IMG/VR virus record: IMGVR_UViG_3300025732_000016
Source of the DNA: a virus
Lineage: Duplodnaviria; Caudoviricetes
Strand: one strand, 5' to 3'
Length of the DNA stretch: 64,000 bases
Below the pieces are notes generated by a model. It was not told where the DNA came from. It was given only the letters and a program-made list of their open reading frames with translations, and searched no databases. Below, piece by piece: positions 41,834 to 59,309 of the stretch (its first letter is position 1; each line of letters begins with the position of its first letter). Position numbers and translations under genes: made by a program.

Positions 41834-41841
41834 AAAGTAAA

Positions 41842-41930: not shown

Positions 41931-41934
41931 ATAA

Positions 41935-42009: not shown

Positions 42010-42034
42010 ATTGGTTCCTGTTAGGAACATTGTT

Positions 42035-42063
42035 AATGTAGTCACACCGTCAAAGGTGTACAC
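42035..42063 (-). promoter_or_regulatory. Sigma70-like promoter for the Thr-Ser-Ser tRNA run
   Basis: GTGTAC-N17-TACATT. Confidence 0.5.
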
Positions 42064-42082
42064 ATTGCTCTCAACTTCTTTC

Positions 42083-42205
42083 GGTTCACCAGTTGCTCTC
42101 TGTTGAACCCGGGTCCATGGTAAGGTATATCCTAATCACCTAAACCCGAGTAACACAGAGTATCACAGGGTTCAACGGGTGTCATCGTGGTTTCGGTGTG
42201 GAACC
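42083..42205 (-). ncRNA. Candidate structured ncRNA (family unassigned)
   Basis: Nested helices GGTTC(C)AC/GTGAACC, GTTGAACCC/GGGTTCAAC, GTGATAC/GTGTTAC and GGGTTTA/TGGACCC. The G-U pairs favour the minus strand. Confidence 0.45.
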
Positions 42206-42206
42206 T

Positions 42207-43301: not shown

Positions 43302-43305
43302 GATA

Positions 43306-43905: not shown

Positions 43906-43934
43906 CTTTCCTCCGGGAGGTAAGTATTAAAAGA

Positions 43935-43962
43935 ATATGGCCCGGTAGAAACCGGGCCATAT
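43935..43962 (-). terminator. Intrinsic terminator after tRNA-Glu
   Basis: ATATGGCCCGGT / ACCGGGCCATAT 12-bp stem, followed by TCTTTT on the minus strand. Confidence 0.75.
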
Positions 43963-44036
43963 GGCGATCCCACCGGGAGTTGAACCCGGCTTCCGGGGAT
44001 GAAAACCCCGTGTCCTAACCGATAGACGATGGGATC
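43962..44036 (-). tRNA. tRNA-Glu(TTC)
   Basis: CGGGG-TTTTCAT-CCCCG; CCA end. Confidence 0.93.
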
Positions 44037-44040
44037 AAAG

Positions 44041-44116
44041 TGGTGGGACCAATGGGGATCGAACCCATGACCCTCGGATTAAAAGTCCGGTGCTCTACCT
44101 GCTGAGCTATAGTCCC
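44041..44116 (-). tRNA. tRNA-Lys(TTT)
   Basis: Anticodon loop CTTTTAA; canonical D and T arms; CCA end. Confidence 0.94.
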
Positions 44117-44145
44117 AAATGACCGGCCAAAGTTTGACCTATGAG

Positions 44146-44173
44146 ATTGTAACAAGCTCTCACAGGTTGACAA
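44146..44173 (-). promoter_or_regulatory. Sigma70-like promoter for the Lys-Glu tRNAs
   Basis: TTGTCA-N16-TACAAT with an extended -10 TG. Confidence 0.55.
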
Positions 44174-44184
44174 CTTCTCGGGAA

Positions 44185-45003
44185 CTATTTGATCTTGCAG
44201 GTCACTTTCTTCGCCGAAGCCTGATCGCCGAGGTCAACGGGCCAGAGAGCCTTCGCAGTCGCAGACTTGTCGAGGCCCGCGGGGACCGGGAACGTGATGC
44301 CAGTCACTCCCTCGATGGCAGAGATCGAGACTGCGCTGGGGAGCGGGTCAGAGGGCTGCTTCTCGATCTGCCTGAAGACGAAGGCGAGCGACTCTCCGGT
44401 CGTTCCGTCGATGACGATCTTGTAGAGGGAGTCCGGCACAACGACCTTGCTTTCGCCGATCGTCTTGCTCTTGCCGACCTCGTAGATGTTCCCGGCGTAG
44501 ACTGTGAGATTGTGCTTCCGTCCCCAAGCCCACGCACGGGTGCTCGCCTCGATGCCCTTCCAGACTCCCCGGTTGAGGTTCGGGAGCTGCGGGCTCATGT
44601 TGCTCATGAGGAACGATTCCTGCTCGGCCTGGAGGCTCCAGCTGAGGTCGGCGTCGGGAGTGAGGTGACCCTTGTCGTAGCCCGACTTCGCGTAGTCACC
44701 GGGAGTGGACCTCCCGTCCTTCGGGAGAGACTCGTCTGCGACAAAAGCGTCCTTGCGAGGGACGCATCCAACAGTCTCTTCGGGCGTGACAGTCCACGCG
44801 GTCCAAACGGGGACCTTCGCGGTGTTGTCGTGGAGAGTCGCATAGCCCTCTCTGCAGAGGAGAGTCGTGTTCACTTTCTGGGACTGCGGGACTCCCCAGG
44901 GAAGCTCAGCCGAGCACTGCTCAATCGGCTTGTTGGGCTTCTGGTCCCACGCGAGGGCTACCAGAGGAAGCGCGAGCAGTGCTGCAATTACGAGTCTCTT
45001 CAT
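44185..45003 (-). CDS. DNA/RNA non-specific endonuclease (NucA/Serratia-like), secreted
   Basis: Signal peptide, 'SGYDKGHL.P' (DRGH-like), 'F.MSNMSPQ...LNRG.W..IE', 'VPDSLYKI'. Confidence 0.9.
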   Translation of the reverse strand: MKRLVIAALLALPLVALAWDQKPNKPIEQCSAELPWGVPQSQKVNTTLLCREGYATLHDNTAKVPVWTAWTVTPEETVGCVPRKDAFVADESLPKDGRSTPGDYAKSGYDKGHLTPDADLSWSLQAEQESFLMSNMSPQLPNLNRGVWKGIEASTRAWAWGRKHNLTVYAGNIYEVGKSKTIGESKVVVPDSLYKIVIDGTTGESLAFVFRQIEKQPSDPLPSAVSISAIEGVTGITFPVPAGLDKSATAKALWPVDLGDQASAKKVTCKIK

Positions 45004-45042
45004 GTTCTCTCCGTGTGCTATGTATGCTTCACGAAGAGAAAG

Positions 45043-45117
45043 TGGTTGGGGCGGAAGGATTCGAACCTTCGGATGTGGGAGTCAAAGTCCCATGTCTTAC
45101 CACTTGACGACGCCCCA
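45043..45117 (-). tRNA. tRNA-Gln(TTG)
   Basis: TGGGA-CTTTGAC-TCCCA; CCA end. Confidence 0.94.
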
Positions 45118-45118
45118 G

Positions 45119-45194
45119 TGGTGCCCCGAGCGGGATTCGAACCCGCCCTACAGGAATTTTAAGTTCCCTGACTCTGCCGCTGGTCTATCGGGGC
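45119..45194 (-). tRNA. tRNA-Leu(TAA), short variable loop
   Basis: GGGAA-CTTAAAA-TTCCT; 5-nt variable loop; A73; CCA end. Confidence 0.85.
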
Positions 45195-45198
45195 AAAG

Positions 45199-45282
45199 TG
45201 GTGCGCGAAGAGGGACTTGAACCCTCACACCTTCCGGCACGGGCTCCTAAGACCCGCGTGTCTGCCATTCCACCATTCGCGC
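45199..45282 (-). tRNA. tRNA-Leu(TAG)
   Basis: CGGGT-CTTAGGA-GCCCG; long variable arm; CCA end. Confidence 0.94.
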
Positions 45283-45287
45283 ATTTG

Positions 45288-45361
45288 TGGTCGGGGTGGC
45301 CAGAATCGAACTGGCGATAAATGCTCCCAAAGCACTCGTGTTACCTCTACACTACACCCCG
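45288..45361 (-). tRNA. tRNA-Pro(TGG)
   Basis: C1 start CGGGGTG; loop TTTGGGA; CCA end. Confidence 0.92.
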
Positions 45362-45963
45362 AAAATCTGTCTTAGTCTCTCTTCGATGTTCTCTTTAGAC
45401 CTGATCCGAACAACATTGTATCCAAGAGAGACCAGCTTTTCATCTCTGGTTTTGTCTTTTTCGTTCCCTTCTGGGTGCCAGTGCTCACCGTCTATTTCGA
45501 TCACTAGCTGATCGATGACAAAATCAGCGTAAAAGTTGTCGATTCTGACTTGAGTCAGAAACTGGACGTCGTTCTTTGTGAGCCAATCAAAAGCTATTCT
45601 TTCCGGGAAAGACATCCTTTGTCTGTTGTTGGAAACGATTCTGTTCGGATGCTTGTCGGGTGATTCCTTGAATAGTAATTTCTTCTCATCAGAGACTCTC
45701 TTTCTTCTTGAATCGTCCCACCAGTCTTTAGTGAATGGAGAAGAGACGCTTCCGTCTTTCAACTTTTGCTTCATAATGACAGAATTCTTCTCTGCCATTG
45801 AGGCAAGACCGGAGTGATCAGTCTTCTTTACACCGTAGTTCCACGCTTTCTTGCCTTGCATCCCATTCTTATAGTTTCTGTCTGGATTCTTTGGGCAAGT
45901 TCTCTCATGATGAGAGAGAGATCGTTTATTCTTACAGTCTTTTTCGCAAAATGAGCAGTTCAT
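45352..45963 (-). CDS. DUF559/Vsr-like PD-(D/E)XK endonuclease with Zn-finger N-terminus (homing-endonuclease-like)
   Basis: 'CSFC...H...C' N-terminus; 'SFPERI', 'YADFVI', 'IEIDGEHWH', 'RDEKL...GYNVVRI'. The stop codon lies inside tRNA-Pro. Confidence 0.8.
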   Translation of the reverse strand: MNCSFCEKDCKNKRSLSHHERTCPKNPDRNYKNGMQGKKAWNYGVKKTDHSGLASMAEKNSVIMKQKLKDGSVSSPFTKDWWDDSRRKRVSDEKKLLFKESPDKHPNRIVSNNRQRMSFPERIAFDWLTKNDVQFLTQVRIDNFYADFVIDQLVIEIDGEHWHPEGNEKDKTRDEKLVSLGYNVVRIRSKENIEERLRQIFGV

Positions 45964-45997
45964 GTCTTAAGTATGAGGCAGACGCTCTACTAAGATG

Positions 45998-46072
45998 TGG
46001 TTGTCGAGATCGGGATTGAACCGATGACCCTCGCCTTGTAAGGGCGGTGCTCTTCCGCTGAGCTACTCGACA
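45998..46072 (-). tRNA. tRNA-Val(TAC)
   Basis: Loop CTTACAA; acceptor TGTCGAG/CTCGACA; CCA end. Confidence 0.9.
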
Positions 46073-46077
46073 CTGTT

Positions 46078-46154
46078 TGGTAGGTCCGGGCCGACTTGAA
46101 CGGCCGACCTCTGCCTTATCAGGGCAGCACTCTAACCAGCTGAGCTACGAACCT
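46078..46154 (-). tRNA. tRNA-Ile(GAT)
   Basis: CTGCC-CTGATAA-GGCAG; CCA end. Confidence 0.94.
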
Positions 46155-46158
46155 TCAG

Positions 46159-46234
46159 TGGTGGAGGCGAGGGGGTTCGAACCCCTGACCCCCGGCTTGC
46201 AAAGCCGGTGCTCTCCCAACTGAGCTACGCCCCC
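46159..46234 (-). tRNA. tRNA-Ala(TGC)
   Basis: G3:U70; CCGGC-TTTGCAA-GCCGG; CCA end. Confidence 0.96.
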
Positions 46235-46246
46235 AAAGGATAGTCT

Positions 46247-46275
46247 ACTGTATCTGACATCAGGACTTTGTTCAC
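46247..46275 (-). promoter_or_regulatory. Sigma70-like promoter for the Ala-Ile-Val tRNAs
   Basis: GTGAAC-N17-TACAGT. Confidence 0.45.
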
Positions 46276-46293
46276 CAAATGGGTGAAACGGGA

Positions 46294-46701
46294 CTACTTC
46301 CCTGCCGGCTTCACTCTCAGGATCTGGTCCTCGGTCCTATAGCCGACGGGTCCTGAAGGGAAGAAGCGACGCTGCATTGCGTCCCAATCGAAAGTCCTTT
46401 CGTTACCACTGTCACCCTTGAATTTCAGGTAGCTCTGGTAAGCCTCGCCGCTGAGACCCTCGCGGCCTGCTCCGAAGAACTTCGTCATGAGACCGAGACC
46501 AGACTTCTCGTCCTCACCGGCCTTTGAGACGAGCCAGTCAATGAAGGTCCAGGTTCCTTCCATCCCATTGATCTCATACTTTGCGCCCTTCTTCAGGACT
46601 TTTGCAAAATTCTTCGCATCAAGCTCGACAAATCCCTCCGCCGCCTCACGAAGCAGCTCTTCACGGATGACCTGACGTAGACGTGACTCGGTGATTCTCA
46701 T
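46294..46701 (-). CDS. Hypothetical protein with MRITES leader
   Basis: 'MRITESRLRQVIREELLREAA'. Confidence 0.7.
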   Translation of the reverse strand: MRITESRLRQVIREELLREAAEGFVELDAKNFAKVLKKGAKYEINGMEGTWTFIDWLVSKAGEDEKSGLGLMTKFFGAGREGLSGEAYQSYLKFKGDSGNERTFDWDAMQRRFFPSGPVGYRTEDQILRVKPAGK

Positions 46702-46754
46702 TGCGGTAACCCCATTCTGCTCACTATCTATTCGATGAGCAGCAGACTTTATGA

Positions 46755-46955
46755 CTATCCTGTCACGTCCTCGACCTCTCCGTCAAAGGAGAGGCAGAGC
46801 TCAGGTTCACGAGGGTGCTCCGTTGACCAGTCCATCGAGCACTCCCTGGAGAAGTGCTCCACCAGCGTGGGATGATTGCGCTCGCACCACTGGCGGAGCG
46901 CCTCGTGAACCTCGTCCCTGCTGAAGTAGAGGTTCACCATCTTCATCTGCCTCAT
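46755..46955 (-). CDS. Small hypothetical protein
   Basis: ATGA-coupled to the upstream small ORF. Confidence 0.55.
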   Translation of the reverse strand: MRQMKMVNLYFSRDEVHEALRQWCERNHPTLVEHFSRECSMDWSTEHPREPELCLSFDGEVEDVTG

Positions 46956-47053
46956 CCGCCCGCCGCCATCACGAGGACTGGCATCGAGAAGAGGACGATG
47001 ATACCGATGACGACTGCCACAAACTCAATCTTGCTCTTTGTCTCGAAACTCAT
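46952..47053 (-). CDS. 33-aa single-TM protein (not in the ORF track)
   Basis: MSFETKSKIEFVAVVIGIIVLFSMPVLVMAAGG. ATGA overlaps on both sides. Confidence 0.6.
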   Translation of the reverse strand: MSFETKSKIEFVAVVIGIIVLFSMPVLVMAAGG

Positions 47054-47412
47054 GCTTGCTCCTTGATCCGAAGTGTTTTGATGGGCTGACCGTAGTTGGT
47101 CTTCTCGCTATCCGTAATCTCGAGAAGACCCGCCTTGAGGAGCTTCCGAATCTGGCGGTGGACGTTGGTGAAGCCGTCTCCCTCCGCAAGGTAGATTCCT
47201 GACCTGAACCAGGGCCCCGTCGACCAGATGCTGATGCTACCGAATCCGATAGCCTCCTCGAAGCTCATCATGCGCATCGTTCCTGGACAGATGTACCCCC
47301 TGGAACGGGATGCAACGAGGAACTTGGAGTCCTTGAGCTTGTTGAGCAGCTCCTGTAGTTCTTCCATTAGAACGCTCCGGTGAGGAAGGACCACGCGAAA
47401 CTGAGGATCCAC
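47050..47412 (-). CDS. Hypothetical protein
   Basis: Coupled ORF with GTG start. Confidence 0.5.
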   Translation of the reverse strand: MDPQFRVVLPHRSVLMEELQELLNKLKDSKFLVASRSRGYICPGTMRMMSFEEAIGFGSISIWSTGPWFRSGIYLAEGDGFTNVHRQIRKLLKAGLLEITDSEKTNYGQPIKTLRIKEQA

Positions 47413-47555
47413 GCCGAGAACCAGATGACGACAGACGAAAGAAACACTGCGAGGCTGAATCCGAGAACTCCGTAGGCAAGACCGAGAGTCTTGCTGAATG
47501 GGTCATCAGTGAACTCGCTCCAGTGCTTCATTGCGATTGCCTTGACACTTTCCAT
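47367..47555 (-). CDS. Small membrane protein
   Basis: Long hydrophobic C-terminus; AAGGAG SD before the ATG at 47555. Confidence 0.55.
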   Translation of the reverse strand: MESVKAIAMKHWSEFTDDPFSKTLGLAYGVLGFSLAVFLSSVVIWFSAWILSFAWSFLTGAF

Positions 47556-47575
47556 GTTTTCTCCTTTATTCGACA

Positions 47576-48454
47576 TTAGACTTCAGGACAGGGTTGTTCA
47601 ATCTGATTAAGGGCCCAGTCAACCTGAATGGTTTGTCCGTTTGCCCTCATCTGGTAGGTGTCACCCCCAATCTCAATGTTCTCCGTCCACTTTCCGAGGA
47701 ACATGATGAGGTCGGACTTTTCGATGTGACCGCCGCTGGCAAGCCTCTTCACGGCATTCTGGACGCCGTGGAGGTGACGTTCGGTGAACTCTGGGAAGTT
47801 GTCACCCGCAGCCTTCGCAAGCCACTCCACGAGGAGGGGATACGAGGACTCCTCGATGCCGTCGTAGCCTCGATACTTCATATACTTCAGGATTCGAGAT
47901 CCGAGGAACGGAGAGTGGATCTGGTTGATGCGAAGCTTTCGACTGGCCTCCAACTCGCGCCAGTCCTTCGGATGGATGAGGACATCACCCACCAGGGCAA
48001 CCTGACAGTTGACCATGTCGAAGCGGGAGATGCATTCCTCTGGGGTCTTGCTGATAAGGTCAGGCCTGTCGATGAGCTGGACTTTGAAGTTGATGTCCCG
48101 CTTCTCAGGGATGGCCGCGGAATTAATCGAGACCCAGTCCATGGTCTCCTGTGCAAAACCCGCCATGGAACGACGATCCTTGAAGGAGCTCGTCGTCTTC
48201 TTGGCGCCCTCCTCCGAGGTGAAGAAGACGTCGACATCGCCTGCGTGTGTATAGACACCTTTCCCGTCGTCCTGGCTGACGTACTCGTGCAGAGAGTCGC
48301 CCCGGAGGAGAGCGCGAGCAAACCCGCCGGCGATGAAACCGCCGTTGTGAAACGAATTTCGCAAGCGAGCCGAACCGTGGAGAATCGCTCTCATGATCTC
48401 CATGTTCTCGCCCTTGACGACATCGAGGACGTGGGTCTCTACGAACTGGGACAA
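47576..48454 (-). CDS. Nucleotidyltransferase, poly(A) polymerase/CCA-adding head-domain-like
   Basis: 'FIAGGFARALL...GDVDVFF', 'KVQLI', 'I.RFD...CQVAL'. Lies next to tRNA genes. Confidence 0.65.
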   Translation of the reverse strand: MSQFVETHVLDVVKGENMEIMRAILHGSARLRNSFHNGGFIAGGFARALLRGDSLHEYVSQDDGKGVYTHAGDVDVFFTSEEGAKKTTSSFKDRRSMAGFAQETMDWVSINSAAIPEKRDINFKVQLIDRPDLISKTPEECISRFDMVNCQVALVGDVLIHPKDWRELEASRKLRINQIHSPFLGSRILKYMKYRGYDGIEESSYPLLVEWLAKAAGDNFPEFTERHLHGVQNAVKRLASGGHIEKSDLIMFLGKWTENIEIGGDTYQMRANGQTIQVDWALNQIEQPCPEV

Positions 48455-48479
48455 TGTGCACCCGTGGTTTGGACGTAGA

Positions 48480-48555
48480 TGGTGGACCGGGTGGGGAACG
48501 ATCCCACGACCTGCGGATTAAGAGTCCGACGCTCTACCGACTGAGCTACCGGTCC
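48480..48555 (-). tRNA. tRNA-Lys(CTT), atypical T-loop ATCGTTC
   Basis: Anticodon loop CTCTTAA; acceptor GGACCGG/CCGGTCC; CCA end. Confidence 0.9.
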
Positions 48556-48559
48556 AGTG

Positions 48560-48647
48560 TGGTGGGGAAGGAGAGAATTGAACTCCCGACGTCCTTAGGA
48601 ACCGGATTTACAGTCCGGTGCTAGCTACCAGCACTAGCAACTTCCCC
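48560..48647 (-). tRNA. tRNA-Tyr(GTA)
   Basis: CCGGA-CTGTAAA-TCCGG; long variable arm; CCA end. Confidence 0.93.
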
Positions 48648-48651
48648 AAAG

Positions 48652-48728
48652 TGGCCTCCCCTGCAGGACTCGAACCTGCTACCTCCGACTTAGAAGGACG
48701 GCGCTCTATCCAGATGAGCTAAGGGGAG
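48652..48728 (-). tRNA. tRNA-Arg(TCT)
   Basis: Loop CTTCTAA; acceptor CTCCCCT/AGGGGAG; CCA end. Confidence 0.9.
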
Positions 48729-48782
48729 AAGTTTTATCCGTCTTTCCGGACCGCCAGACTGGTTATCTCACAATCATTGAAG

Positions 48783-48858
48783 TGGTAGGCGGGGTGGGGT
48801 TTGAACCCACGACCGGTCGGATATAAGCCGACTGCTCTGACCGCTGAGCTACCCGCCT
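48783..48858 (-). tRNA. tRNA-Ile(TAT)
   Basis: GTCGG-CTTATAT-CCGAC; acceptor AGGCGGG/CCCGCCT; CCA end. Confidence 0.9.
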
Positions 48859-48920
48859 GTAAGGGGCAGAGATCTTGTTGAGCAGATTTATTGGCATCCA
48901 CGACCGGACCAGCATGGTAG

Positions 48921-48949
48921 AATATAAATCAGGGAACCAGATTGTTCAA
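48921..48949 (-). promoter_or_regulatory. Sigma70-like promoter for the Ile-Arg-Tyr-Lys tRNAs
   Basis: TTGAAC-N17-TATATT. Confidence 0.55.
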
Positions 48950-49257
48950 AGGCTCCGCAACTTTTCGATCAGGACCTTCACGCTCGACTCGGTGGCCCCG
49001 ACAAGCGTGTCAATCCGCTCACCGTTGTGAAACCCGATGACGGTTGGAACGGCCTGCACCTTCATCTTCTGGGAGAACTGCTCACCGCCCTCGATGTCGA
49101 CGTATGCAAAGACGATATCAGGAGTCTCAAAAGAGATCTTCTCGACCTTGGGCTTCAGGAGCTTGCAGGGCATGCACCACGTGGCCCCGAACTGGACGAT
49201 CACGTGAGTGTTGCCGTCGATGAGTTCCTGGATGTTGTCGTCGTTCCGGTTGATCAT
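48946..49257 (-). CDS. Thioredoxin
   Basis: 'QFGATWCMPCK', 'YVDI', 'VQAVPT'. Confidence 0.92.
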   Translation of the reverse strand: MINRNDDNIQELIDGNTHVIVQFGATWCMPCKLLKPKVEKISFETPDIVFAYVDIEGGEQFSQKMKVQAVPTVIGFHNGERIDTLVGATESSVKVLIEKLRSL

Positions 49258-49529
49258 CTCTTCTCCCTGTATGGGGTCACAGAAGCTATGAATTTGGTTG
49301 GATCCACTCGCATGTAGCTCTTGGTCGAGTGGGGATTGCCCTCTTCAGTGCGGACAATCGTAATCTCGTTTGTGAGAAGGTGGTGTTCTACGACCTCAGC
49401 GACGTACCTCTTCATGTAGGTGCCGTATCCCCACTTCGTTCCGATCGCAGGGAACCTTGATGATCGCTGGCGCATGAACCACGCGATGTGAACGGTAGCG
49501 GCGATGAGGAGGGATAGCCCGAACAGCAT
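49254..49529 (-). CDS. Hypothetical protein with N-terminal hydrophobic segment
   Basis: Coupled to thioredoxin; ATACTTA upstream. Confidence 0.55.
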   Translation of the reverse strand: MLFGLSLLIAATVHIAWFMRQRSSRFPAIGTKWGYGTYMKRYVAEVVEHHLLTNEITIVRTEEGNPHSTKSYMRVDPTKFIASVTPYREKR

Positions 49530-49546
49530 TGCTATGGGACTAAGTA

Positions 49547-49623
49547 TGGCTCCCGATCCCTGATTTGAACAGGGGACCCACGGATTAACAGTCCGTTGCT
49601 CTAACCAACTGAGCTAATCGGGA
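49547..49623 (-). tRNA. tRNA-Asn(GTT)
   Basis: ACGGA-CTGTTAA-TCCGT; CCA end. Confidence 0.95.
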
Positions 49624-49629
49624 ATGAAG

Positions 49630-49703
49630 TGGAGCGGGCACCGGGATTCGAACCCGGTTATCCAGCTTGGAAGGCTGGTGCACAACCCATATGCCATGCC
49701 CGC
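49630..49703 (-). tRNA. tRNA-Gly(TCC)
   Basis: CCAGC-CTTCCAA-GCTGG; CCA end. Confidence 0.93.
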
Positions 49704-49712
49704 GATTTGAAA

Positions 49713-49807
49713 GAACATGGAGACCCGGAGCTTGTACAGCGTCGGCCAACCCGGTTCGGCTGTGCTCCCCACTCACATGGGATACTGTACACCCGCCGTC
49801 CATGTTC
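49713..49807 (-). ncRNA. Candidate structured ncRNA between tRNA-Arg and tRNA-Gly
   Basis: GAACATGGA/TCCATGTTC encloses TGTACAG/CTGTACA and a CCCAT-GTGA-GTGGG GNRA hairpin. Possible GGAGC/GCTCC pseudoknot. Confidence 0.5.
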
Positions 49808-49811
49808 AAAG

Positions 49812-49888
49812 TGGCGTCCACGACAGGATTCGAACCTGTGACCTATCGCTTAGGAAGCGATTGCTCTATCCAGCTGAGCTACGAGGAC
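49812..49888 (-). tRNA. tRNA-Arg(CCT)
   Basis: ATCGC-TTCCTAA-GCGAT; one acceptor mismatch; CCA end. Confidence 0.92.
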
Positions 49889-51380: not shown

Positions 51381-52115
51381 ATGCGCATTGGAATCTTCGG
51401 CGGCGGATTCAAGCCGTTCACTTCAGGTCACTTCTCGAAGCTTGCTCTCGCGTCTGCAGAGAACGATGAGGTCCTCCTCTTCTACGGCATCGCCGAGAGG
51501 AAGAAGGGCTCAGACTACCTCTACACGAAGGAGATGGCAGAACAGGTCTTCGAGATCGCGAAGAGTGCAATCGAAAGAGAGATGCCCAACGTCAATGTCA
51601 TCAAGGCGAAACCGACTCCCATCGTCATGGCTTTCGAGGCGATACAGACGTTTGCGGGAGTTCTCGACGCTCCCAGGTTCTTTCGCTACTCCGACTACGG
51701 AATCGACGTGAACAGCATCGACGAGGTGACTCTCTACGGCGACCAGGAGACGGTGGGAGAGTATCTGGCTTATGCCGATGACCCTGTGAAGGGACCGAGG
51801 TACTACGGCACGACTCTACAGGACGGGACCCTCCATTTCGACACGGGTATGGCGGATGGCGATGATGCGAGAATCATCAACGCAGTCCAGTCCTTCCACC
51901 CGGGTTGCAGTCGAGAAGAGGTGAGGGCAAGAAACCTTGTCCGAGGCTCAGAGGTTCGGGCTTCCATCGCATCCCGCAACCCAGAGGCGATCACTCGCTT
52001 CCTCCCACCCATCTACAGCCCTGAGGAGAAGGCGGCGGTGATAGACATCCTCTACAGGGGACTCTGCGAGTCCACCCTTCGCAAGACAATCAGAACCATG
52101 ATACTGGTGGGATGA
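51381..52115 (+). CDS. HUP-fold (cytidylyltransferase/NMNAT-like) nucleotidyltransferase
   Basis: 'GIFGGGFKPFTSGH' (HIGH-like), and C-terminal 'RGSEVRA.I......RFLP' (SxT.IR-like). Confidence 0.75.
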   Translation: MRIGIFGGGFKPFTSGHFSKLALASAENDEVLLFYGIAERKKGSDYLYTKEMAEQVFEIAKSAIEREMPNVNVIKAKPTPIVMAFEAIQTFAGVLDAPRFFRYSDYGIDVNSIDEVTLYGDQETVGEYLAYADDPVKGPRYYGTTLQDGTLHFDTGMADGDDARIINAVQSFHPGCSREEVRARNLVRGSEVRASIASRNPEAITRFLPPIYSPEEKAAVIDILYRGLCESTLRKTIRTMILVG

Positions 52116-53389
52116 TGATCAGACAGCTTATCCGTGAGATGCTCATGCTGGAGAACGGTCCCGAGGCCCACATCCTCAACTTCTATGAGGACCTCGACAT
52201 GCCCCTCTCCGAGTTCAAGGAGGCCATCAGGGCCCTCCTCGATGCCCAGGTGGAGGACGTCGAGGAGAAGATGGACGGGCAGAATCTCACCTTCACCGTG
52301 AGGAACGGCGAGGTGGAGACGTTCTCCAAGGGAGCCTCCTGGGCATCCGTCCAGCGCGGCGGAAAGAAGATCGCCGACTACGAGGCCCAGTACGCTGACC
52401 GTCCGCAGGTGAGGGACGCCTTCAAGAGGGCGTACGCATCCCTCCAGGCCGCGGCAGATGTCGATCCGGCCCTCACCTCCCGGCTCTTCAGGGACGGCGG
52501 AGTGGTGGTGGAGTCCCTCATGATGCTCCCCGAGAACCCCAACACCATCGTCTACGACAGGCCCACCATCCGATTCGTGAGGGCCTACCCGATGGACCCG
52601 GCGCTCGGTGGACAGGTGGACCAGGAGGCGTACAGACAGTTCCTCGCTTCAGCTTCCTCGCTGGACGTCGCCGTCCCGATGGGTGAGGTTCCCATCCTGA
52701 AACTGAAGAAGGTCCTCAATTCTGACCAGGTCGCAGCCGAACTTGAGACAGACCTCGATGCGCTCATGGCCGAGGCCGGTGTCAACGACTCGTCCACCAT
52801 GGGTGATCTCATTGTCGGACTCGTGAAGACCCGCCTCGAGTCCGATGGGATGAGTCCTGATGTCGCGACAAAGGTCGCCATCCGTCTCGGTCGCGGTGAG
52901 AAGGCGGCGTTCTCCGCGAAGGACGCGAAGGCGGTGGGACCCGGCGTCTGGGAGAAGGTCCAGGGAATGGAGTCCGGCCCATACGTCGACGAGGCCATCA
53001 TCCCCATCGAGAGGATCCTCCAGAAGCTCGCCGTCCAGGTCTTCCGCAACCTGGAGTTCGTCCTCTCCTCCAACCGCACCGAGTCAGGTGACGCTCTTCG
53101 ATCCTTCGTCCGGCAGACCCGAGACGCAGTGAGGGGCGGGAGGCTCATCGCCGACCCATCCCAGACCGAGTCCATCAGGGTTGCACTCGAGAGGATCGGT
53201 GACGAGGCAGCATTCGAGAAGGCGGTTGAGGGAATCGTCTTCCGGTGGAAGGGAAAGACCCGGAAGCTCACCGGACTCTTCACGCCCATCAACAAGCTCC
53301 GCGGATTCTTCGCCTATGGTAAGACTCCAGCGAGGATATCGCAGAATGAGTCTCGAAAGAGATACTTACCATTCGGAAGGGTCGGATAA
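52112..53389 (+). CDS. ATP-grasp/ligase-like nucleotidyltransferase (RNA-ligase-like motifs)
   Basis: 'EEKMDGQN' (KxDG, motif I), 'EGIVF' (motif IV) and 'KLTG.F' (motif V-like). IRQLIRE leader. Confidence 0.55.
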   Translation: MMIRQLIREMLMLENGPEAHILNFYEDLDMPLSEFKEAIRALLDAQVEDVEEKMDGQNLTFTVRNGEVETFSKGASWASVQRGGKKIADYEAQYADRPQVRDAFKRAYASLQAAADVDPALTSRLFRDGGVVVESLMMLPENPNTIVYDRPTIRFVRAYPMDPALGGQVDQEAYRQFLASASSLDVAVPMGEVPILKLKKVLNSDQVAAELETDLDALMAEAGVNDSSTMGDLIVGLVKTRLESDGMSPDVATKVAIRLGRGEKAAFSAKDAKAVGPGVWEKVQGMESGPYVDEAIIPIERILQKLAVQVFRNLEFVLSSNRTESGDALRSFVRQTRDAVRGGRLIADPSQTESIRVALERIGDEAAFEKAVEGIVFRWKGKTRKLTGLFTPINKLRGFFAYGKTPARISQNESRKRYLPFGRVG

Positions 53390-53440
53390 TGAGAATCACA
53401 GAATCACAGCTTAGAAAGTACGGATCAGGCGGGCACTGAG

Positions 53441-54247
53441 ATGGGAGGAGAGGCATTCAAGGGTCCCGACGGAGAGCCACTAGCCACGGGCATAAAGCAG
53501 GCAGAGGTTGGTCCGACTCTCGACTCTCTTCTTCGAGATGTCCTCCGCCCCGTGGGCATCGATTCCTACGTCCCGCTGGGCTCGACGGGCAAGAAGCCGA
53601 TCTCTAGTGACCTTGACATCGCAGTCGGACCTGTCCCGATGGATGACCCGAAGGCTCTGAAGGCTCTGAAGGACGCGCTACTGGCGAACATCCAGGCGGT
53701 TGTCGGACCTGACAACGCGAAGCTCGTCGGTCAGAACATCGCGATACTTCAGCCCATTGCTGGCTCTCCCGATCGTTTCGTGCAGGTCGATCTCATGCTG
53801 TCGGGTGACCCACAGAAGACGGGCTGGCTGATGTCTGGTACGGGTTCGGGCGTGAAGGGAGTCTATCGCAACCTCATGCTAGCATACATCGCGAAGCTCC
53901 GTTCTGAGGAGCAGCCTGGTACCAAGATCACCATCTCATACCCAGGCGGCATCCAGGTCGTCAAGGATGGGCAGACAGTGGTGCCGAGGACTGAGGACGC
54001 GGAAGCGATTGTCTCCACTCTCGGAATCCCTGCGAAGCCCTCAGAGATCAATACTTTTGAGGAACTAGTAACCATATTGGCAAGGGACCCGAGCATCTCT
54101 GGTAAGCTCGAGGGTTACGAGACATACATCGGAAGGTATCTCCAGGATCCGAAAACTGCAGTAGAGGCCCAAAAGTCGATTGCTGCCCTTAAAACAGCTC
54201 GCGGTCTCATGGAGACCGTGAGACTGCTGGTTCGCTCTCTCAGGTGA
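53441..54247 (+). CDS. Pol-beta-superfamily nucleotidyltransferase
   Basis: 'LGSTGKKPISSDLDIAV' (GS..DxD) and a third Asp in 'VQVDLM'. The leader appears frameshifted at 53389-53440. Confidence 0.72.
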   Translation: MGGEAFKGPDGEPLATGIKQAEVGPTLDSLLRDVLRPVGIDSYVPLGSTGKKPISSDLDIAVGPVPMDDPKALKALKDALLANIQAVVGPDNAKLVGQNIAILQPIAGSPDRFVQVDLMLSGDPQKTGWLMSGTGSGVKGVYRNLMLAYIAKLRSEEQPGTKITISYPGGIQVVKDGQTVVPRTEDAEAIVSTLGIPAKPSEINTFEELVTILARDPSISGKLEGYETYIGRYLQDPKTAVEAQKSIAALKTARGLMETVRLLVRSLR

Positions 54248-56208: not shown

Positions 56209-57165
56209 GTGCAAATGCATAGAAACGAAGCTGTGGTGAGGAGCCTTATTCGTGAATGGCTCATAATCGAACAGGCAGCTGATGACGGCGCGAGCGCAGG
56301 AGCTGAAGCTGCTGGAGAGCTCAGCGGACTTGGATCTTTGGAGAGCCAAGTTGATGCTGCTCTCGATAAGATTGAAGACAAGATAGAAGACAAGAGTGAA
56401 GCAGTTGTCGCTCTTGCTTTAGGGCTCGGTCTCTCGATCCCCACGCTCGGAAAGTGGGCCGCAAAGGCAATAGCTCTCATCGTCAAAGGTTACGTCAAGC
56501 TCGCATCGAAGTTCGGCAAACCTGAACAGTCTGGTGGGCTTGCGTGGGCTGCAAAAGTAGAGGCTGCGGGAGAATCCTTCTACGAGAAAGGTCATCACAT
56601 GATCGAAAGCTTCTATACAAAAATTGTGAAAGCCCTGTTTCTTCTTCTGTGCGCAATGGGAGACGTGGGAGGAATTGATGCTTACAAAGCTTACGCAGAC
56701 TCACCAGCGGGACAAGAAGCTTTCACAAAAGTAGCAAAGCTGATCGATCTTGCAGTAACGTGTATCCTCGCAGTCTATAGCGTCCAGGGGGCTATCGGAG
56801 CGATTCAGGCAGCTCACGCAGGACTCGCCGCGACCGAGGGCGTTCTTTCTGCTGCAAAGGGAGCGCACATAGGAGCTGCAGTCGCAGAGTCAATAGTAGA
56901 GGCTTCTAGAGCATTTGCAAGAGCATTTGCTGAAGCGGGTGTAGCCTCGGCCCTGATCTCGGACATCATGAAGAAAGCTTCATCTTTCTTCGAAGCCATC
57001 AAAGAGACGATTATGGGCGGCATCGAAGTCACTAAAAAGGCTGCTCAGGCTGCTGGACTCTCAGTTGCTCTCGCTGCAGGATCGGCAGTAGCCAGTGATG
57101 CTCCTGCCGACAGTGCTGCCTCTGCGCAGGACAGCGGAGTTGTTAGAGCTGATTCATCTCGTTGA
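56209..57165 (+). CDS. Ala-rich protein with several hydrophobic helices and an LIRE-type leader
   Basis: 'EAVVRSLIREWLIIEQ'; hydrophobic segments 'VVALALGLGLSIP' and 'LIDLAVTCILAVYSV'. Confidence 0.65.
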   Translation: MQMHRNEAVVRSLIREWLIIEQAADDGASAGAEAAGELSGLGSLESQVDAALDKIEDKIEDKSEAVVALALGLGLSIPTLGKWAAKAIALIVKGYVKLASKFGKPEQSGGLAWAAKVEAAGESFYEKGHHMIESFYTKIVKALFLLLCAMGDVGGIDAYKAYADSPAGQEAFTKVAKLIDLAVTCILAVYSVQGAIGAIQAAHAGLAATEGVLSAAKGAHIGAAVAESIVEASRAFARAFAEAGVASALISDIMKKASSFFEAIKETIMGGIEVTKKAAQAAGLSVALAAGSAVASDAPADSAASAQDSGVVRADSSR

Positions 57166-57442: not shown

Positions 57443-57990
57443 TCCTTCACGTTGATCTCGATGTCAGAAACGACCTCATCACCCCACACGTCCCAGCCCG
57501 GTGCCTTCTCACGCGCAAACAGTTCAAGCTTTCGCTGCGTCGGAAACATCTGCTCGATCCTACTTCTCACCTCGAGGGGCTTCGCAGAGTGCTCCCTGCG
57601 CTTTTCAGAGAGGAATTGCCTCACATTACGAGAACCTCGTGGCTGAGGTATCTTACCCTTCTTTCCGATAAGACAGAGCTCGACCTGGGACATCGTGTAG
57701 AAGCCCGGATTGACTTTCTGCTTGTCCCAGGCAAAACCAACGGTCGCCCACTGGAATCCCCACGACTTCATCAGGTCAATCGCCTGGTCCAAGTGGGGCG
57801 ACGTCGACCAGAGAAACAGTAGGCAGTCGGGAGCACAGTGCTCCGCCACGTTGTACTGTTTGAGGTCATCGAGAGTGAGAGTCCCGTAGTGGTTCTTTGC
57901 TCCGCCTGAAGTGGGACCTCCACGACCGGTGTGCTGCACCTGTCCCTTGTAGTCCCACGGTGGGTCGCAGTAGATGATTTCGTAGCTCAA
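57439..57990 (-). CDS. MT-A70 family N6-adenine methyltransferase
   Basis: 'IIYCDPPW', 'LFLWSTSP', 'WGF', 'G.YT....ELCLIG', 'HSAKP', 'LELFAR....GWDVWG'. Confidence 0.92.
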   Translation of the reverse strand: MSYEIIYCDPPWDYKGQVQHTGRGGPTSGGAKNHYGTLTLDDLKQYNVAEHCAPDCLLFLWSTSPHLDQAIDLMKSWGFQWATVGFAWDKQKVNPGFYTMSQVELCLIGKKGKIPQPRGSRNVRQFLSEKRREHSAKPLEVRSRIEQMFPTQRKLELFAREKAPGWDVWGDEVVSDIEINVKE

Positions 57991-59309
57991 GCCTTCTCCT
58001 TCCAGGTGTCGTAAGCGGCGAGGACCTTGGGGTCCACATCAGAGGGGTCTCGGAAGCGGCAAAATACGGGAAAGCGGAGCTTCCCATCCGGGGTGAACGG
58101 GGGCTGGTGTTCGCATTCCACGATCCGACCGATGTAGGAATCAGGCGCCGAGTTCACCTCGGTCTTGAGTCGATCGGAGTATCCACCACCGACCCGGGTA
58201 ACCACGCCATTGGGCGTGAGGACCTTGAATCCACCGAACTGGCCTGCCCGCTTCGTGGCCTTTGACGCCTCGTACCAGCCGACCACCACACCCTCCTCGG
58301 TGGCCACCGGCTTGAGCTTGAGGATGGCCGAGGAGCGCTTCCACTGGTACTTGGCTTTGACGTCCTTGAGCATCACACCCTCGTAGCCGGCGTCGAGGCA
58401 GGTCGAGTAGAACTCTCGGAGCTCATCCTCATTTGCGCAGGTCTTCGCCTTCACGTACCGGAAGGGACCCTGGGAGAGCATTGGGCCAGCCCCGATGATG
58501 GTGACCAGGTCTGCCAGACGCTGCTCGTAGGTGAGCTCGGTCCTTTGGGCCTGCCAGTCAGTGAGGGGAACGCAATCGAAGACGTGGTAGCACATGGTCG
58601 AGTCGTCCTTCTTGGACTTGGCCGACATCACCACCGAGGCCGACTCATTCCAGTCCTCACCCATGGCCTCGCCGTCGAGGACGAAATCATCGGAGGAGAG
58701 GGACTCGATTGCCGCCTTGATGCGGGGGAGAGTCTCGAGCACCGTGCCATTGCGAGTGTAGAGAGTGACCTCACTCTTGGACTTCACCGCCACCACTCGG
58801 AGGCCATCGAGCTTCGCCTCGACTCGGACGGGATAGGTCACCGGCTCGGAGAAGACGAAGTTTCCGTTGACTCCCTTGGTGGGGAGAGTGCCGGCGAGAG
58901 CCACCGCGAATGGGACCACCGTGCCCGGCCAGAGCTTGTTGATCGTGGTCACCGAGACCCCGCAGCGGAGGTTCCGCCAGAGGAGGCGTTCGAGCCACTT
59001 CTGGGCGACCCCGTCACCGGACTGGATGAGATCGGAGACCGCCTTCTTGGCTGCGTTACCTTTGAGTTCCCGCTTGTCGAGGCGAACCAGGAGATCGAGG
59101 AACTCGGTGACCAGGTCATCGCCGTGACCCCGGGTGCCGGGCGCCTTCGGGCGATCGTACTTGGCCACGCCCCAGTTCTTCCAGGGATCGAAGGCAAGCG
59201 AGAAGAAGCGGTGGAGGAGCGGATTGCCGCGATTCTCCTCCATGACGGCGCCCTTTGCGTTCCGGCCGCCGTCCGCCTCGAGAGTTTCCAGGATGTCCAG
59301 GACTTCCAT
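57987..59309 (-). CDS. ATP-dependent DNA ligase
   Basis: 'EAKLDGLR' (KxDG), 'VLDGE', 'YHVFD', 'EGVMLK', 'KRS..ILKLKP', OB domain 'LRFPVF..FR'. Confidence 0.95.
   Translation of the reverse strand: MEVLDILETLEADGGRNAKGAVMEENRGNPLLHRFFSLAFDPWKNWGVAKYDRPKAPGTRGHGDDLVTEFLDLLVRLDKRELKGNAAKKAVSDLIQSGDGVAQKWLERLLWRNLRCGVSVTTINKLWPGTVVPFAVALAGTLPTKGVNGNFVFSEPVTYPVRVEAKLDGLRVVAVKSKSEVTLYTRNGTVLETLPRIKAAIESLSSDDFVLDGEAMGEDWNESASVVMSAKSKKDDSTMCYHVFDCVPLTDWQAQRTELTYEQRLADLVTIIGAGPMLSQGPFRYVKAKTCANEDELREFYSTCLDAGYEGVMLKDVKAKYQWKRSSAILKLKPVATEEGVVVGWYEASKATKRAGQFGGFKVLTPNGVVTRVGGGYSDRLKTEVNSAPDSYIGRIVECEHQPPFTPDGKLRFPVFCRFRDPSDVDPKVLAAYDTWKEKA

What the first reader, a model, noticed from the sequence alone, without database searches (positions are those of the whole stretch)
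51381..54247. Plus-strand operon of three different nucleotidyltransferase folds
Seen: an isolated plus-strand unit in a minus-strand region, with tightly overlapping junctions (ATGA and TAATG). It encodes a HIGH-type adenylyl/cytidylyltransferase, a KxDG/EGIV/K ligase-like enzyme and a GS-DxD-D pol-beta NTase. All three carry the leader-like helix at an N- or C-terminus. Established: these folds respectively make NAD/CoA-type nucleotides, seal RNA/DNA via Lys-AMP, and add nucleotides or make cyclic oligonucleotides (the CD-NTase fold). Inference: a co-packaged pathway for RNA repair, NAD+ restoration, or making a decoy nucleotide signal against host immunity. I know of no described system with this composition.
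Basis: partly seen in the sequence, partly recalled or inferred. Interest (0 to 1): 0.8.

Follow-up and report, generated by a model that had tools for sequence, protein, structure and literature searches.

The report
Phage polymerase-ligase-nucleotidyltransferase repair module
Three coupled genes of an uncultured freshwater giant phage encode a miniature repair-type polymerase, an RNA-ligase-like joining enzyme and a small adenylyl/cytidylyl-transferase; many phages keep them together or fuse them into one protein, so they probably form an unstudied kit for mending broken nucleic acid, likely loaded into the phage head.

Summary
ORF1 (51381-52115), ORF2 (52112-53389) and ORF3 (53441-54247) are a plus-strand unit among minus-strand genes.

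- **Junctions:** the ATGA overlap is real. The TAATG opens only a 16-codon mini-ORF. ORF3 starts 2 nt after that mini-ORF's stop and is full length.
- **ORF1:** a TxGH (HIGH-type) nucleotidyltransferase at the NMNAT/PPAT border.
- **ORF2:** a ligase-fold enzyme with invariant motif I Lys, motifs IV and V, and no OB domain. It is closest to RNA ligases (Z about 8).
- **ORF3:** not CD-NTase-like. It is a minimal family X polymerase, palm plus thumb (Pol beta Z 10.5, ASFV Pol X Z 8.9).
- **Conservation:** the trio keeps its order in 19 of 22 related viral loci. It is fused pairwise or triply in dozens of proteins. The ORF2 family has about 1,700 clusters.
- **Tags:** the helices sit next to [L/I/V]-x-E sites (39 of 41 ORF3 domain starts), matching T4 gp21 processing. 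Five of five related records encode that protease. Head loading is therefore plausible but unproven.

Best reading: a fill-and-seal repair kit, RNA favoured over DNA, with the role of ORF1 open. This scan met the same module before on other DNA. I found no paper describing it.

The parts
51381..52115 (+). ORF1, 244 aa: HIGH-type (TxGH) Rossmann-like nucleotidyltransferase of the cytidylyl/adenylyl-transferase superfamily
   Evidence: It carries GGGFKPFTSGHF (nt 51402-51434) and RGSEVR, both conserved in 21 aligned relatives. Family hits are all weak and sub-threshold: TIGR00125 E 1.5e-4, CoaD E 2.7e-4, NMNAT E 6e-3, phrog_3462 NMNAT E 0.003, and a PDB profile hit to PPAT E 0.02. Atlas neighbours are viral CTP_transf_like clusters.
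52071..52112 (+). C-terminal tag helix of ORF1 (STLRKTIRTMILVG), preceded by L-C-E
   Evidence: [LIVMF]-x-E followed by a basic amphipathic tail occurs in 15 of 18 unfused family members. In fused relatives the same helix links the ORF1 and ORF2 domains.
52112..53389 (+). ORF2, 425 aa: covalent (lysyl-NMP) nucleotidyltransferase of the ligase fold. It is RNA-ligase-like, has no OB domain, and carries a helical insert of about 170 aa between motifs IIIa and IV.
   Evidence: Motif I EEKMDGQN lies at nt 52262-52285 (K53). Motifs IV and V, EGIVFRWKGKTRKLTG, lie at nt 53228-53275. These positions are invariant in 40 sequences. The AF2 model has pLDDT 91.4. Foldseek top hits are all RNA ligases. VIA-align gives Z 8.2 for Rnl2 and NgrRnl, 8.0 for Trl1 and 7.5 for Rnl1, against 4.6-6.5 for DNA ligases (one outlier, the ASFV DNA ligase, scores 7.5) and 4.2 for LigA.
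52112..52153 (+). N-terminal tag helix of ORF2 (MMIRQLIREMLMLE), ending in M-L-E before NG
   Evidence: Residues 1-13 are detached from the fold (pLDDT below 50). The helix is optional within the family. The same motif heads window ORFs that start at 43301(-), 46701(-), 35296(-) and 56209(+).
53389..53439 (+). 16-codon mini-ORF (MRITESQLRKYGSGGH, then stop): a truncated copy of the tag. It is probably a deletion scar that now couples translation of ORF2 (TAATG) to ORF3 (TGA-g-ATG).
   Evidence: Sequence. In relatives L003-L005 this site holds one to five small genes that each begin MRITES.LR. L005 also has a 17-codon remnant directly before ORF3. Strain variants diverge exactly at 53418 and 53441 (loose ends).
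53441..54247 (+). ORF3, 268 aa: minimal family X (Pol beta-like) polymerase with palm plus thumb, followed by a C-terminal helical extension
   Evidence: GSTGKKPISSDLDIAV lies at nt 53579-53626 and D117 at nt 53789-53791. G47, S48, D57, D59 and D117 are invariant. The AF2 model has pLDDT 93.3. The Foldseek top 50 are all Pol lambda, mu, beta or PolX. VIA wide gives Pol beta Z 10.5 (182 aa, rmsd 3.8, model 8-210 against Pol beta 141-338), TdT 9.2, TthPolX 9.1 and ASFV Pol X 8.9 (162 of 176 aa).
54215..54244 (+). C-terminal tag helix of ORF3 (TVRLLVRSLR), preceded by L-M-E
   Evidence: [LIVMF]-x-E plus a basic tail occurs in 32 of 38 family members. Members that carry an N-terminal tag lack the C-terminal one.

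Best explanation
The three genes encode one virus-specific enzyme module for mending or joining broken nucleic-acid strands.

Proposed steps:
1. ORF3, a minimal family X polymerase, adds the missing nucleotide(s) to a 3'-OH end.
2. ORF2, an OB-less RNA-ligase-type enzyme, activates itself on Lys53 and seals the 3'-OH/5'-phosphate break.
3. ORF1, a HIGH-type nucleotidyltransferase, supplies or recycles a nucleotide-linked cofactor, or activates an end. Its substrate is unknown.

The preferred substrate is RNA (tRNA-type breaks made by host nucleases), with DNA nicks or gaps as the main alternative.

The proteins carry a removable amphipathic tag next to [L/I/V]-x-E sites. I read this as T4-type head targeting and prohead-protease processing, so the enzymes would be loaded into the capsid and delivered with the DNA.

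Shown: the folds, the catalytic motifs, co-conservation, the fusions and the site pattern. Inferred: the chemistry, the substrate, the packaging and the role of ORF1.
For: **Functional unit**
- The order ORF1-ORF2-ORF3 is kept in 19 of 22 IMG/VR loci, with ORF2 identity ranging from 27 to 97%.
- Seven loci hold all three in a single ORF, and seven more hold ORF2+ORF3 in one ORF.
- Among 216 family proteins, 20 are ORF1-ORF2 fusions, 17 are ORF2-ORF3 and at least 6 are triple.
- P0025 is ORF1+ORF2 (37% identity over the full length). P0048 is ORF2+ORF3 (42% identity).
- Even 23%-identical ORF2 relatives are fused to CTP_transf_like domains.

**Folds**
- ORF2 is ligase-like and nearest to RNA ligases, with invariant K53, E373/G374 and K385.
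- ORF3 matches PolX palm plus thumb at Z 8-10.5, well above other Pol beta NTases.

**RNA leaning**
- ORF2 has no OB domain after motif V.
- RNA ligases outrank all but one DNA ligase, the ASFV ligase.
- A canonical DNA ligase with an OB domain already lies at 57987-59309.
- The unit lies 1.5 kb from a block of 19 tRNA genes plus a tmRNA gene.
- Published analogy: RlaP with RNA ligase restores lost nucleotides before ligation (PMC7824862; preprint 10.64898/2025.12.29.696909).

**Packaging**
- [LIVMF]-x-E sits directly before the invariant GG.AF in 39 of 41 extended or fused ORF3 domains.
- The same motif sits at ORF1/ORF2 junctions and before the C-terminal tags.
- A T4 gp21-type protease (PF03420) is present above cut-off in 5 of 5 related records.
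- T4 targeting sequences, cleavage after Glu and processing of Alt at both ends are described in PMC9026906.
Against: - No activity, substrate or virion protein has been measured.
- The Z score of about 8 for ORF2 is only middling by the tool's own note. RNA ligases, at Z 6.8-8.2, only partly clear DNA ligases: the ASFV DNA ligase scores 7.5, above T4 Rnl1 and the archaeal RNA ligases, while the other DNA ligases score 4.6-6.5.
- PolX enzymes are classically DNA repair polymerases, which favours the DNA rival.
- No end-healing kinase or phosphatase lies in or beside the unit.
- ORF1 has no assigned substrate, and its place in a repair scheme is conjecture.
- The window's own genome is not held, and no gp21-type protease lies in the window. 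Packaging therefore rests on relatives and on a short motif.
- ORF2's own site is M-L-E, with Met rather than Leu or Ile at P3.
Confidence: 0.5

Rival explanations
1. A DNA repair kit. The minimal PolX fills short gaps and ORF2 seals nicks in the phage genome. Possible settings are base-excision-type repair, packaging or injection damage, or restriction nicks. This would resemble ASFV Pol X with the ASFV ligase, or the PgV PolX-ligase fusion.
For: ORF3's best structural matches are DNA repair polymerases, including full-length ASFV Pol X (Z 8.9, 162 of 176 aa). The ASFV DNA ligase is among ORF2's better matches (Z 7.5). A PolX-ligase fusion with proven gap-fill and seal activity exists in a giant virus (PMC5537341).
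Against: ORF2 lacks the OB domain that all classic ATP-dependent DNA ligases carry. Apart from the ASFV ligase, DNA ligases score 4.6-6.5, below the RNA ligases at 6.8-8.2. The phage already encodes a standard DNA ligase with an OB domain. ORF3 lacks the 8-kDa lyase and fingers subdomains, because the alignment starts at Pol beta residue 139-142.
Confidence: 0.25
2. A nucleotide-metabolism or immune-signal module. ORF1 remakes NAD+, ORF3 makes cyclic or linear oligonucleotide signals like a CD-NTase, and ORF2 modifies a small molecule or protein.
For: ORF1's weak best hits include NMNAT families, and JGI labels some relatives as NMNAT. The Pol beta core of ORF3 is shared with CD-NTases (Z 6.3-7.6 over about 100 aa).
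Against: ORF3 has the PolX thumb that binds the nascent base pair and aligns with PolX over about 180 aa. ORF2 keeps all the ligase motifs. ORF1 is equally close to PPAT, and every hit is below its cut-off. No NadV or Nudix partner lies in the unit.
Confidence: 0.06
3. The shared helices are not head-targeting tags. They could be flexible linkers or docking helices that hold the three enzymes together in the cytoplasm, with the [L/I/V]-x-E pattern a by-product of helix-capping preferences.
For: The helix lies at every domain boundary in fused forms, as a linker would. No virion data exist. The window shows no prohead protease.
Against: Unfused ORF3 starts M-GG.AF, whereas fused forms have E-GG.AF in 39 of 41 cases, so the Glu is not part of the fold. 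A given ORF3 carries the tag at its N-terminus or its C-terminus, not both. The same tag heads unrelated proteins in the window. Relatives encode gp21-type proteases. T4 Alt is cut at both ends (PMC9026906).
Confidence: 0.2
4. An end-tailoring rather than repair system. The polymerase adds a short tail, the ligase joins or circularises, and ORF1 caps an end. The target would be phage genome ends or a phage RNA, to protect them from host exonucleases.
For: TdT and Pol mu, which act without a template or across ends, are among ORF3's matches (Z 9.2 and 8.1). HIGH-type enzymes chemically join an NMP to a phosphate monoester, which a 5'-phosphate end is (established chemistry of the family; the application here is an inference).
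Against: No direct evidence. No precedent for a HIGH-type enzyme acting on polynucleotide ends was found in the searches.
Confidence: 0.08

Closest known systems
RlaP (PF10127) with ATP-dependent RNA ligase: an RNA repair pair of bacteria and jumbo phages (PMC7824862 section 3.4.9; preprint 10.64898/2025.12.29.696909)
   Same: A Pol beta-superfamily nucleotide adder is genetically tied to an RNA-ligase-fold enzyme. The proposed logic is to restore lost nucleotides at a 3'-OH and then seal.
   Different: ORF3 gives no PF10127 hit, and related records hold none. Its fold is PolX palm plus thumb. ORF2 belongs to no curated Rnl family. A HIGH-type transferase is a constant third partner. The parts are often fused and carry tags.
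ASFV Pol X (174 aa) with the ASFV DNA ligase, and the Phaeocystis globosa virus PolX-ligase fusion (PMC5537341)
   Same: A minimal PolX, or a PolX core, is paired or fused with a ligase in a large DNA virus as a fill-and-seal system. ORF3 aligns with nearly all of ASFV Pol X.
   Different: Those ligases are DNA ligases: an ATP type with an OB domain, or a LigA type that uses NAD+. ORF2 has no OB domain and is nearest to RNA ligases, with LigA at only Z 4.2. Those systems act in eukaryotic viruses and have no HIGH-type partner.
T4 RNA ligases Rnl1 and Rnl2, Naegleria NgrRnl (Rnl5) and fungal Trl1 ligase domain
   Same: The nucleotidyltransferase fold, motif I Lys, motifs IV and V, and the absence of an OB domain.
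   Different: Sequence identity is only 10-17%. Pfam RNA_ligase scores below its cut-off (18.7 against 27). ORF2 has a unique helical insert of about 170 aa between motifs IIIa and IV, and a conserved N-terminal H-x3-FYED segment.
T4 capsid targeting sequences and gp21 processing of internal proteins and Alt (PMC9026906)
   Same: A short terminal peptide lies next to a hydrophobic-x-Glu site on unrelated enzymes of one phage. Relatives encode the gp21-type protease.
   Different: The tag sequence is different (MRITES.LR..IRE..) and longer. It also occurs at C-termini and between fused domains. Nothing has been shown experimentally for these phages.

Membership tests
Family X DNA polymerases (ORF3) | Pol beta-type palm with a G-S loop and three catalytic carboxylates | tested here: met
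   G47, S48, D57, D59 and D117 are invariant in 40 sequences. The palm is superposed on Pol beta.
Family X DNA polymerases (ORF3) | Thumb (nascent base-pair binding) subdomain following the palm | tested here: met
   Model residues 8-210 align with Pol beta 141-338 (Z 10.5, 182 aa, rmsd 3.8). All of ASFV Pol X aligns (Z 8.9).
Family X DNA polymerases (ORF3) | 8-kDa lyase and fingers (helix-hairpin-helix) subdomains | tested here: not met
   The protein begins at the palm and nothing precedes residue 7. The same is true of ASFV Pol X, so this does not exclude the minimal subgroup.
Family X DNA polymerases (ORF3) | Recognition by the curated sequence models (DNA_pol_B_palm and DNA_pol_B_thumb) | tested here: not met
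   No Pfam hit for ORF3 at E up to 1. One relative gives only a weak DNA_pol_B_palm hit (E 0.076).
Family X DNA polymerases (ORF3) | Template-directed or terminal nucleotide addition | not testable with these tools
   Needs an enzyme assay.
ATP-dependent RNA ligases (ORF2) | Motif I K-x-D-G with the adenylylated lysine | tested here: met
   E52, K53, D55 and G56 are invariant.
ATP-dependent RNA ligases (ORF2) | Motifs IV (E-G-h-h) and V (lysine) on adjacent strands | tested here: met
   E373, G374, V376, F377 and K385 are invariant. The strands are 374-379 and 382-386.
ATP-dependent RNA ligases (ORF2) | Ligase nucleotidyltransferase fold without an OB domain | tested here: met
   About 190 residues are superposed on Rnl2, NgrRnl, Rnl1 and Trl1 at Z 7.5-8.2. 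Only one helix follows motif V.
ATP-dependent RNA ligases (ORF2) | Score above the Pfam RNA_ligase (PF09414) gathering cut-off | tested here: not met
   The window protein scores 18.7 bits against a cut-off of 27. One relative, P0038, reaches 28.4.
ATP-dependent RNA ligases (ORF2) | Lysine adenylylation and strand joining | not testable with these tools
   Needs labelled ATP or NAD+ and defined substrates.
HIGH-type (cytidylyltransferase-like) nucleotidyltransferases (ORF1) | (H/T)-x-G-H motif after the first strand, and a second basic motif near the C-terminus | tested here: met
   GGGFKPFTSGHF and RGSEVR are conserved.
HIGH-type (cytidylyltransferase-like) nucleotidyltransferases (ORF1) | Score above curated cut-offs (PF01467, TIGR00125) | tested here: not met
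   TIGR00125 scores 21.9 against 27.7, and there is no PF01467 hit for ORF1. Fused distant relatives do pass PF01467 (22.9 against 21).
NMN adenylyltransferase (ORF1) | Equivalog-level match to NadD, NadR or archaeal NMNAT models | tested here: not met
   The best hit is 16.3 bits against a cut-off of 127, and CoaD scores as well or better.
RlaP (PF10127) (ORF3) | Match to the family model | tested here: not met
   No hit for ORF3. Nothing was found in five related records.
CD-NTases (ORF3) | cGAS/DncV-like fold beyond the shared Pol beta core | tested here: inconclusive
   CdnE, CdnG and CdnD align over about 100 core residues (Z 6.3-7.6), or over the whole chain only at rmsd above 8. This is below PolX.
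T4-type capsid-targeted, gp21-processed head proteins | Hydrophobic-x-Glu site next to a short terminal peptide | tested here: met
   Found in 39 of 41 ORF3 domain starts, 15 of 18 ORF1 tails and 32 of 38 ORF3 tails. ORF2 ends its tag with M-L-E.
T4-type capsid-targeted, gp21-processed head proteins | gp21-type prohead protease in the same genome | tested here: inconclusive
   Present in 5 of 5 related records. Not in this window, and the rest of the genome is not held.
T4-type capsid-targeted, gp21-processed head proteins | Presence in virions with processed termini | not testable with these tools
   Needs virion mass spectrometry.

The most novel reading that the evidence does not exclude
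The module is a ready-made repair machine loaded in the capsid and delivered with the DNA. In it the HIGH-type enzyme is an obligatory partner of the ligase. It would either activate 5'-phosphate ends directly (NMN-like chemistry applied to a polynucleotide end) or make the ligase's nucleotide donor on site. Either would be a division of labour not known for any ligase system.
Probability: 0.15. Interest if true: 0.85.

Novelty: new variant of a known kind. Interest (0 to 1): 0.62.

Why it matters
The ORF2 family alone spans about 1,700 clusters at 50% identity. In what I sampled, Pfam recognised only CTP_transf_like domains and its RNA_ligase model in a few members, and one source named it only 'cytidylyltransferase like protein'.

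If the reading is right, many large phages of lakes and seas carry a pre-assembled polymerase-ligase kit. It could undo nuclease-based host defences at the moment of entry, before any phage gene is translated.

It would also add a new ligase clade and a new minimal PolX clade to the enzyme toolbox. It poses a concrete question about why a HIGH-type nucleotidyltransferase is welded to a ligase.

The tag-and-site pattern gives a testable rule for predicting which proteins such phages load into their heads.

Tried and rejected
- **Complex prediction, ORF2 with ORF1:** score 0.11, below the mark of 0.32. No verdict, so it counts neither for nor against binding.
- **blastn and tblastn against isolated phages:** no DNA match. 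ORF1 and ORF3 gave no protein match. ORF2 matched only two huge-phage assemblies and Microcystis phage Mel-JY01.
- **PDB sequence search with ORF2:** noise only.
- **PDB profile search with ORF3:** only summed weak matches to designer PPR repeats over residues 187-259. I treat these as spurious.
- **Extra C-terminal domains of fused relatives:** heterogeneous, with no Pfam family and no counterpart in the window.
- **Promoter and terminator scan:** nothing above shuffled expectation.
- **Search for healing enzymes in related records:** an AAA_33 kinase only in the two complete records, Tpt1 only in LR756500, and no RlaP. Fragmentary records make this uninformative.
- **RNA-library contigs X23 and X24:** they cover parts of ORF2 and ORF3 at 90-97% likeness. 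They come from relatives and do not show transcription.
- **Frameshift idea for ORF3:** rejected. ORF3 is full length, and an independent contig confirms the sequence.
- **LigA-like NAD+ dependence of ORF2:** not supported by fold (Z 4.2), though the cofactor remains untested.
- **Whole genome:** not held.


Full report
**What is there**

The region holds three plus-strand ORFs: 51381-52115 (ORF1, 244 aa), 52112-53389 (ORF2, 425 aa) and 53441-54247 (ORF3, 268 aa). Minus-strand genes end at 51309 and at 54240 on either side. The window is phage-like. It carries 19 tRNA genes and a tmRNA gene at 40950-49888, a standard ATP-dependent DNA ligase and an MT-A70 methylase. Notes from this scan place it in a genome of more than 200 kb. 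The DNA occurs in freshwater metagenomes.

ORF1 and ORF2 overlap by ATGA. The TAATG at the end of ORF2 is real, but its ATG opens only a 16-codon ORF that stops at 53437-53439. ORF3's ATG follows two bases later, in another frame.

**The mini-ORF is a scar, not a frameshift**

ORF3 begins MGG.AF exactly as its roughly 267-aa homologues do. In three close relatives, the same spot between ORF2 and ORF3 holds one to five small genes that each start MRITES.LR. One relative has a 17-codon remnant directly before ORF3.

Contigs from two freshwater runs diverge from the window exactly at 53418 and 53441. One contig covers 53351-53748 without any difference.

So this site is a hot spot where tag-bearing cassettes come and go. 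The window keeps only a stub, which probably still passes ribosomes from ORF2 to ORF3 (inference).

**The three enzymes**

*ORF1* has the TxGH form of the HIGH motif and a second RGSEVR motif, both conserved. Every curated model scores below its cut-off. PPAT, NMNAT and the generic cytidylyltransferase domain are about equally close. Its Atlas neighbours are viral cytidylyltransferase-like clusters. I can name the superfamily but not the substrate.

*ORF2* has an invariant motif I (E52, K53, D55, G56), motif IV (E373, G374) and a motif V lysine (K385) across 40 sequences. The motifs persist in relatives at about 20% identity.
- The AlphaFold model is confident (pLDDT 91.4). Residues 1-13 are detached from the fold, and a helical insert of about 170 residues lies between motifs IIIa and IV. 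Nothing but one helix follows motif V.
- Foldseek's best matches are all RNA ligases.
- A search of 48,161 PDB representatives that does not depend on Foldseek ranks as follows:

| Match | Z |
|---|---|
| Rnl2 | 8.2 |
| NgrRnl | 8.2 |
| Trl1 | 8.0 |
| REL1 | 7.7 |
| Rnl1 | 7.5 |
| ASFV DNA ligase | 7.5 |
| Other DNA ligases | 4.6-6.5 |
| Capping enzymes | 4.7-5.2 |
| LigA | 4.2 |

*ORF3* has the invariant G-S loop and three carboxylates, and a confident model (pLDDT 93.3).
- The 50 best Foldseek matches are all Pol lambda, mu, beta or bacterial PolX.
- The wide search shows what sets it apart. Family X enzymes align over about 160-180 residues covering palm and thumb: Pol beta Z 10.5, TdT 9.2, Thermus PolX 9.1, ASFV Pol X 8.9 over 162 of its 176 residues.
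- CD-NTases, TUTases, poly(A) polymerases and a CCA enzyme share only the roughly 100-residue core (Z 5.6-7.6).
- ORF3 is therefore a minimal PolX of the ASFV type plus a helical C-terminal extension, not a cGAS-like enzyme.

**Are they one system? Yes.**

- Of 22 IMG/VR loci whose ORF2 is 27-97% identical, 19 carry ORF1, ORF2 and ORF3 in the same order and direction. One more is cut by the contig end.
- In seven loci all three lie in a single reading frame of 934-1565 residues. In seven others ORF2 and ORF3 are fused, with ORF1 just upstream.
- Direct comparisons confirm this. P0025 is ORF1+ORF2 (37% identity to the whole of ORF1). P0048 is ORF2+ORF3 (42% identity).
- Among 216 family members I tallied 20 ORF1-ORF2 fusions, 17 ORF2-ORF3, at least 6 triple fusions and many with further unknown domains.
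- Very distant ORF2 relatives are again fused to cytidylyltransferase-like domains, in either order. These include Microcystis phage Mel-JY01 and two huge-phage assemblies.
- The family is large: 1,710 clusters at 50% identity reach E 0.001, and 724 reach E 1e-30.

**The helix**

The motif MRITES.LR..IRE..L heads several unrelated ORFs of the window. It is the detached N-terminus of ORF2.

In fused relatives, an amphipathic helix followed by [L/I/V]-x-E lies at each domain boundary. In 39 of 41 ORF3 domains that have anything upstream, that Glu directly precedes the invariant GG.AF. Unfused proteins have Met there, so removal of the initiator Met would leave the same mature end (inference).

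The C-terminal helices of ORF1 and ORF3 are likewise preceded by [LIVMF]-x-E, in 15 of 18 and 32 of 38 members. ORF3 members with an N-terminal tag lack the C-terminal one.

Hydrophobic-x-Glu is the site of the T4 gp21 prohead protease, which acts inside proheads. T4 loads internal proteins through a short targeting peptide and trims Alt at both ends (PMC9026906). All five related records I could search encode a gp21-type protease above the Pfam cut-off.

The window itself has none, and its genome is not held. Head loading is therefore a well-motivated inference, not a finding.

**Most likely mechanism**

A polymerase that extends a 3'-OH, tied to a ligase-fold enzyme, is the logic of fill-and-seal repair. 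Two published analogues frame the choice:
- RlaP with RNA ligase adds one or two nucleotides to damaged RNA before sealing (PMC7824862; preprint 10.64898/2025.12.29.696909).
- PolX with a DNA ligase acts in ASFV and in the PgV fusion protein (PMC5537341).

I favour RNA for four reasons:
- ORF2 lacks an OB domain.
- ORF2 sits nearest to RNA ligases.
- The phage already has a normal DNA ligase.
- The unit lies beside a large tRNA block.

DNA remains a serious rival, because the PolX fold is classically a DNA repair fold.

ORF1's part is open. Its family joins an NMP to a phosphate monoester. That could mean making a dinucleotide cofactor or, more speculatively, activating a 5'-phosphate end.

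**Comparison and novelty**

ORF3 fails the RlaP model. ORF2 fails the curated RNA_ligase cut-off. ORF1 fails all equivalog models. None should be filed as a member of those named families, although each works like its superfamily.

My searches found no paper on this three-part composition. Other agents of this scan reported the same or very similar modules on other genomes and reached similar readings. I used two of their literature leads and checked the claims on this window myself.

I class it as a new variant of a known kind of system.

Noticed in passing
window 53389-53441; L003 5483-5704; L004 7272-7903; L005 7269-8579: The gap between ORF2 and ORF3 is a hot spot. Close relatives hold one to five small genes there, each beginning MRITES.LR. 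Strain variants in two freshwater runs break away from the window exactly at 53418 and 53441. The repeated tag-coding DNA may itself drive cassette gain and loss.
   Followed up: partly
window 35302-35310, 43307-43315, 46725-46733 (all minus strand): The motif GAATAGWTA occurs three times (0.2 expected, none of 100 shuffles reached 3). Each copy lies a few bases upstream of a gene that starts with the tag helix. It may be a shared promoter or translation signal for tagged genes.
   Followed up: partly
window 47576-48454 (-): A 292-aa protein directly beside the tRNA block matches phrog_1614 'nucleotidyltransferase' (E 7e-5) and has no Pfam hit. It could be a further RNA-end enzyme.
   Followed up: no
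window 44185-45003 (-): A 272-aa protein set among the tRNA genes matches phrog_14168 'nuclease' strongly (E 8e-43).
   Followed up: no
window 40950-49888: A block of 19 tRNA genes plus a tmRNA gene (tag peptide ANNTDHFSEALAA), all on the minus strand and interleaved with tag-bearing protein genes.
   Followed up: no
window 56209-57165 (+): This is the only other plus-strand gene nearby. It encodes a 318-aa Ala-rich hydrophobic protein with the tag helix followed by I-I-E. It has no Pfam or PHROG match.
   Followed up: no
window 42207-43301 (-) and 46294-46701 (-): Two proteins start with near-identical tags (MRITESTLRHLIRETLLAE and MRITESRLRQVIREELLRE), each ending in L-x-E before Ala. They have no family match.
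   Followed up: no
P0009-P0012 (685-704 aa; about 62% identical to ORF2): In these relatives, an unknown domain of about 270-290 aa is fused in front of the ORF2 domain. A separate ORF1-family protein appears to lie on the same short contigs, judged only from matching contig lengths. The extra domain has no Pfam family.
   Followed up: no
L009, L012, L019, L020 and other loci, downstream of the ORF3 domain: Fused relatives carry a fourth C-terminal region of 280-600 aa. It differs between clades and has no Pfam match and no counterpart in this window.
   Followed up: partly
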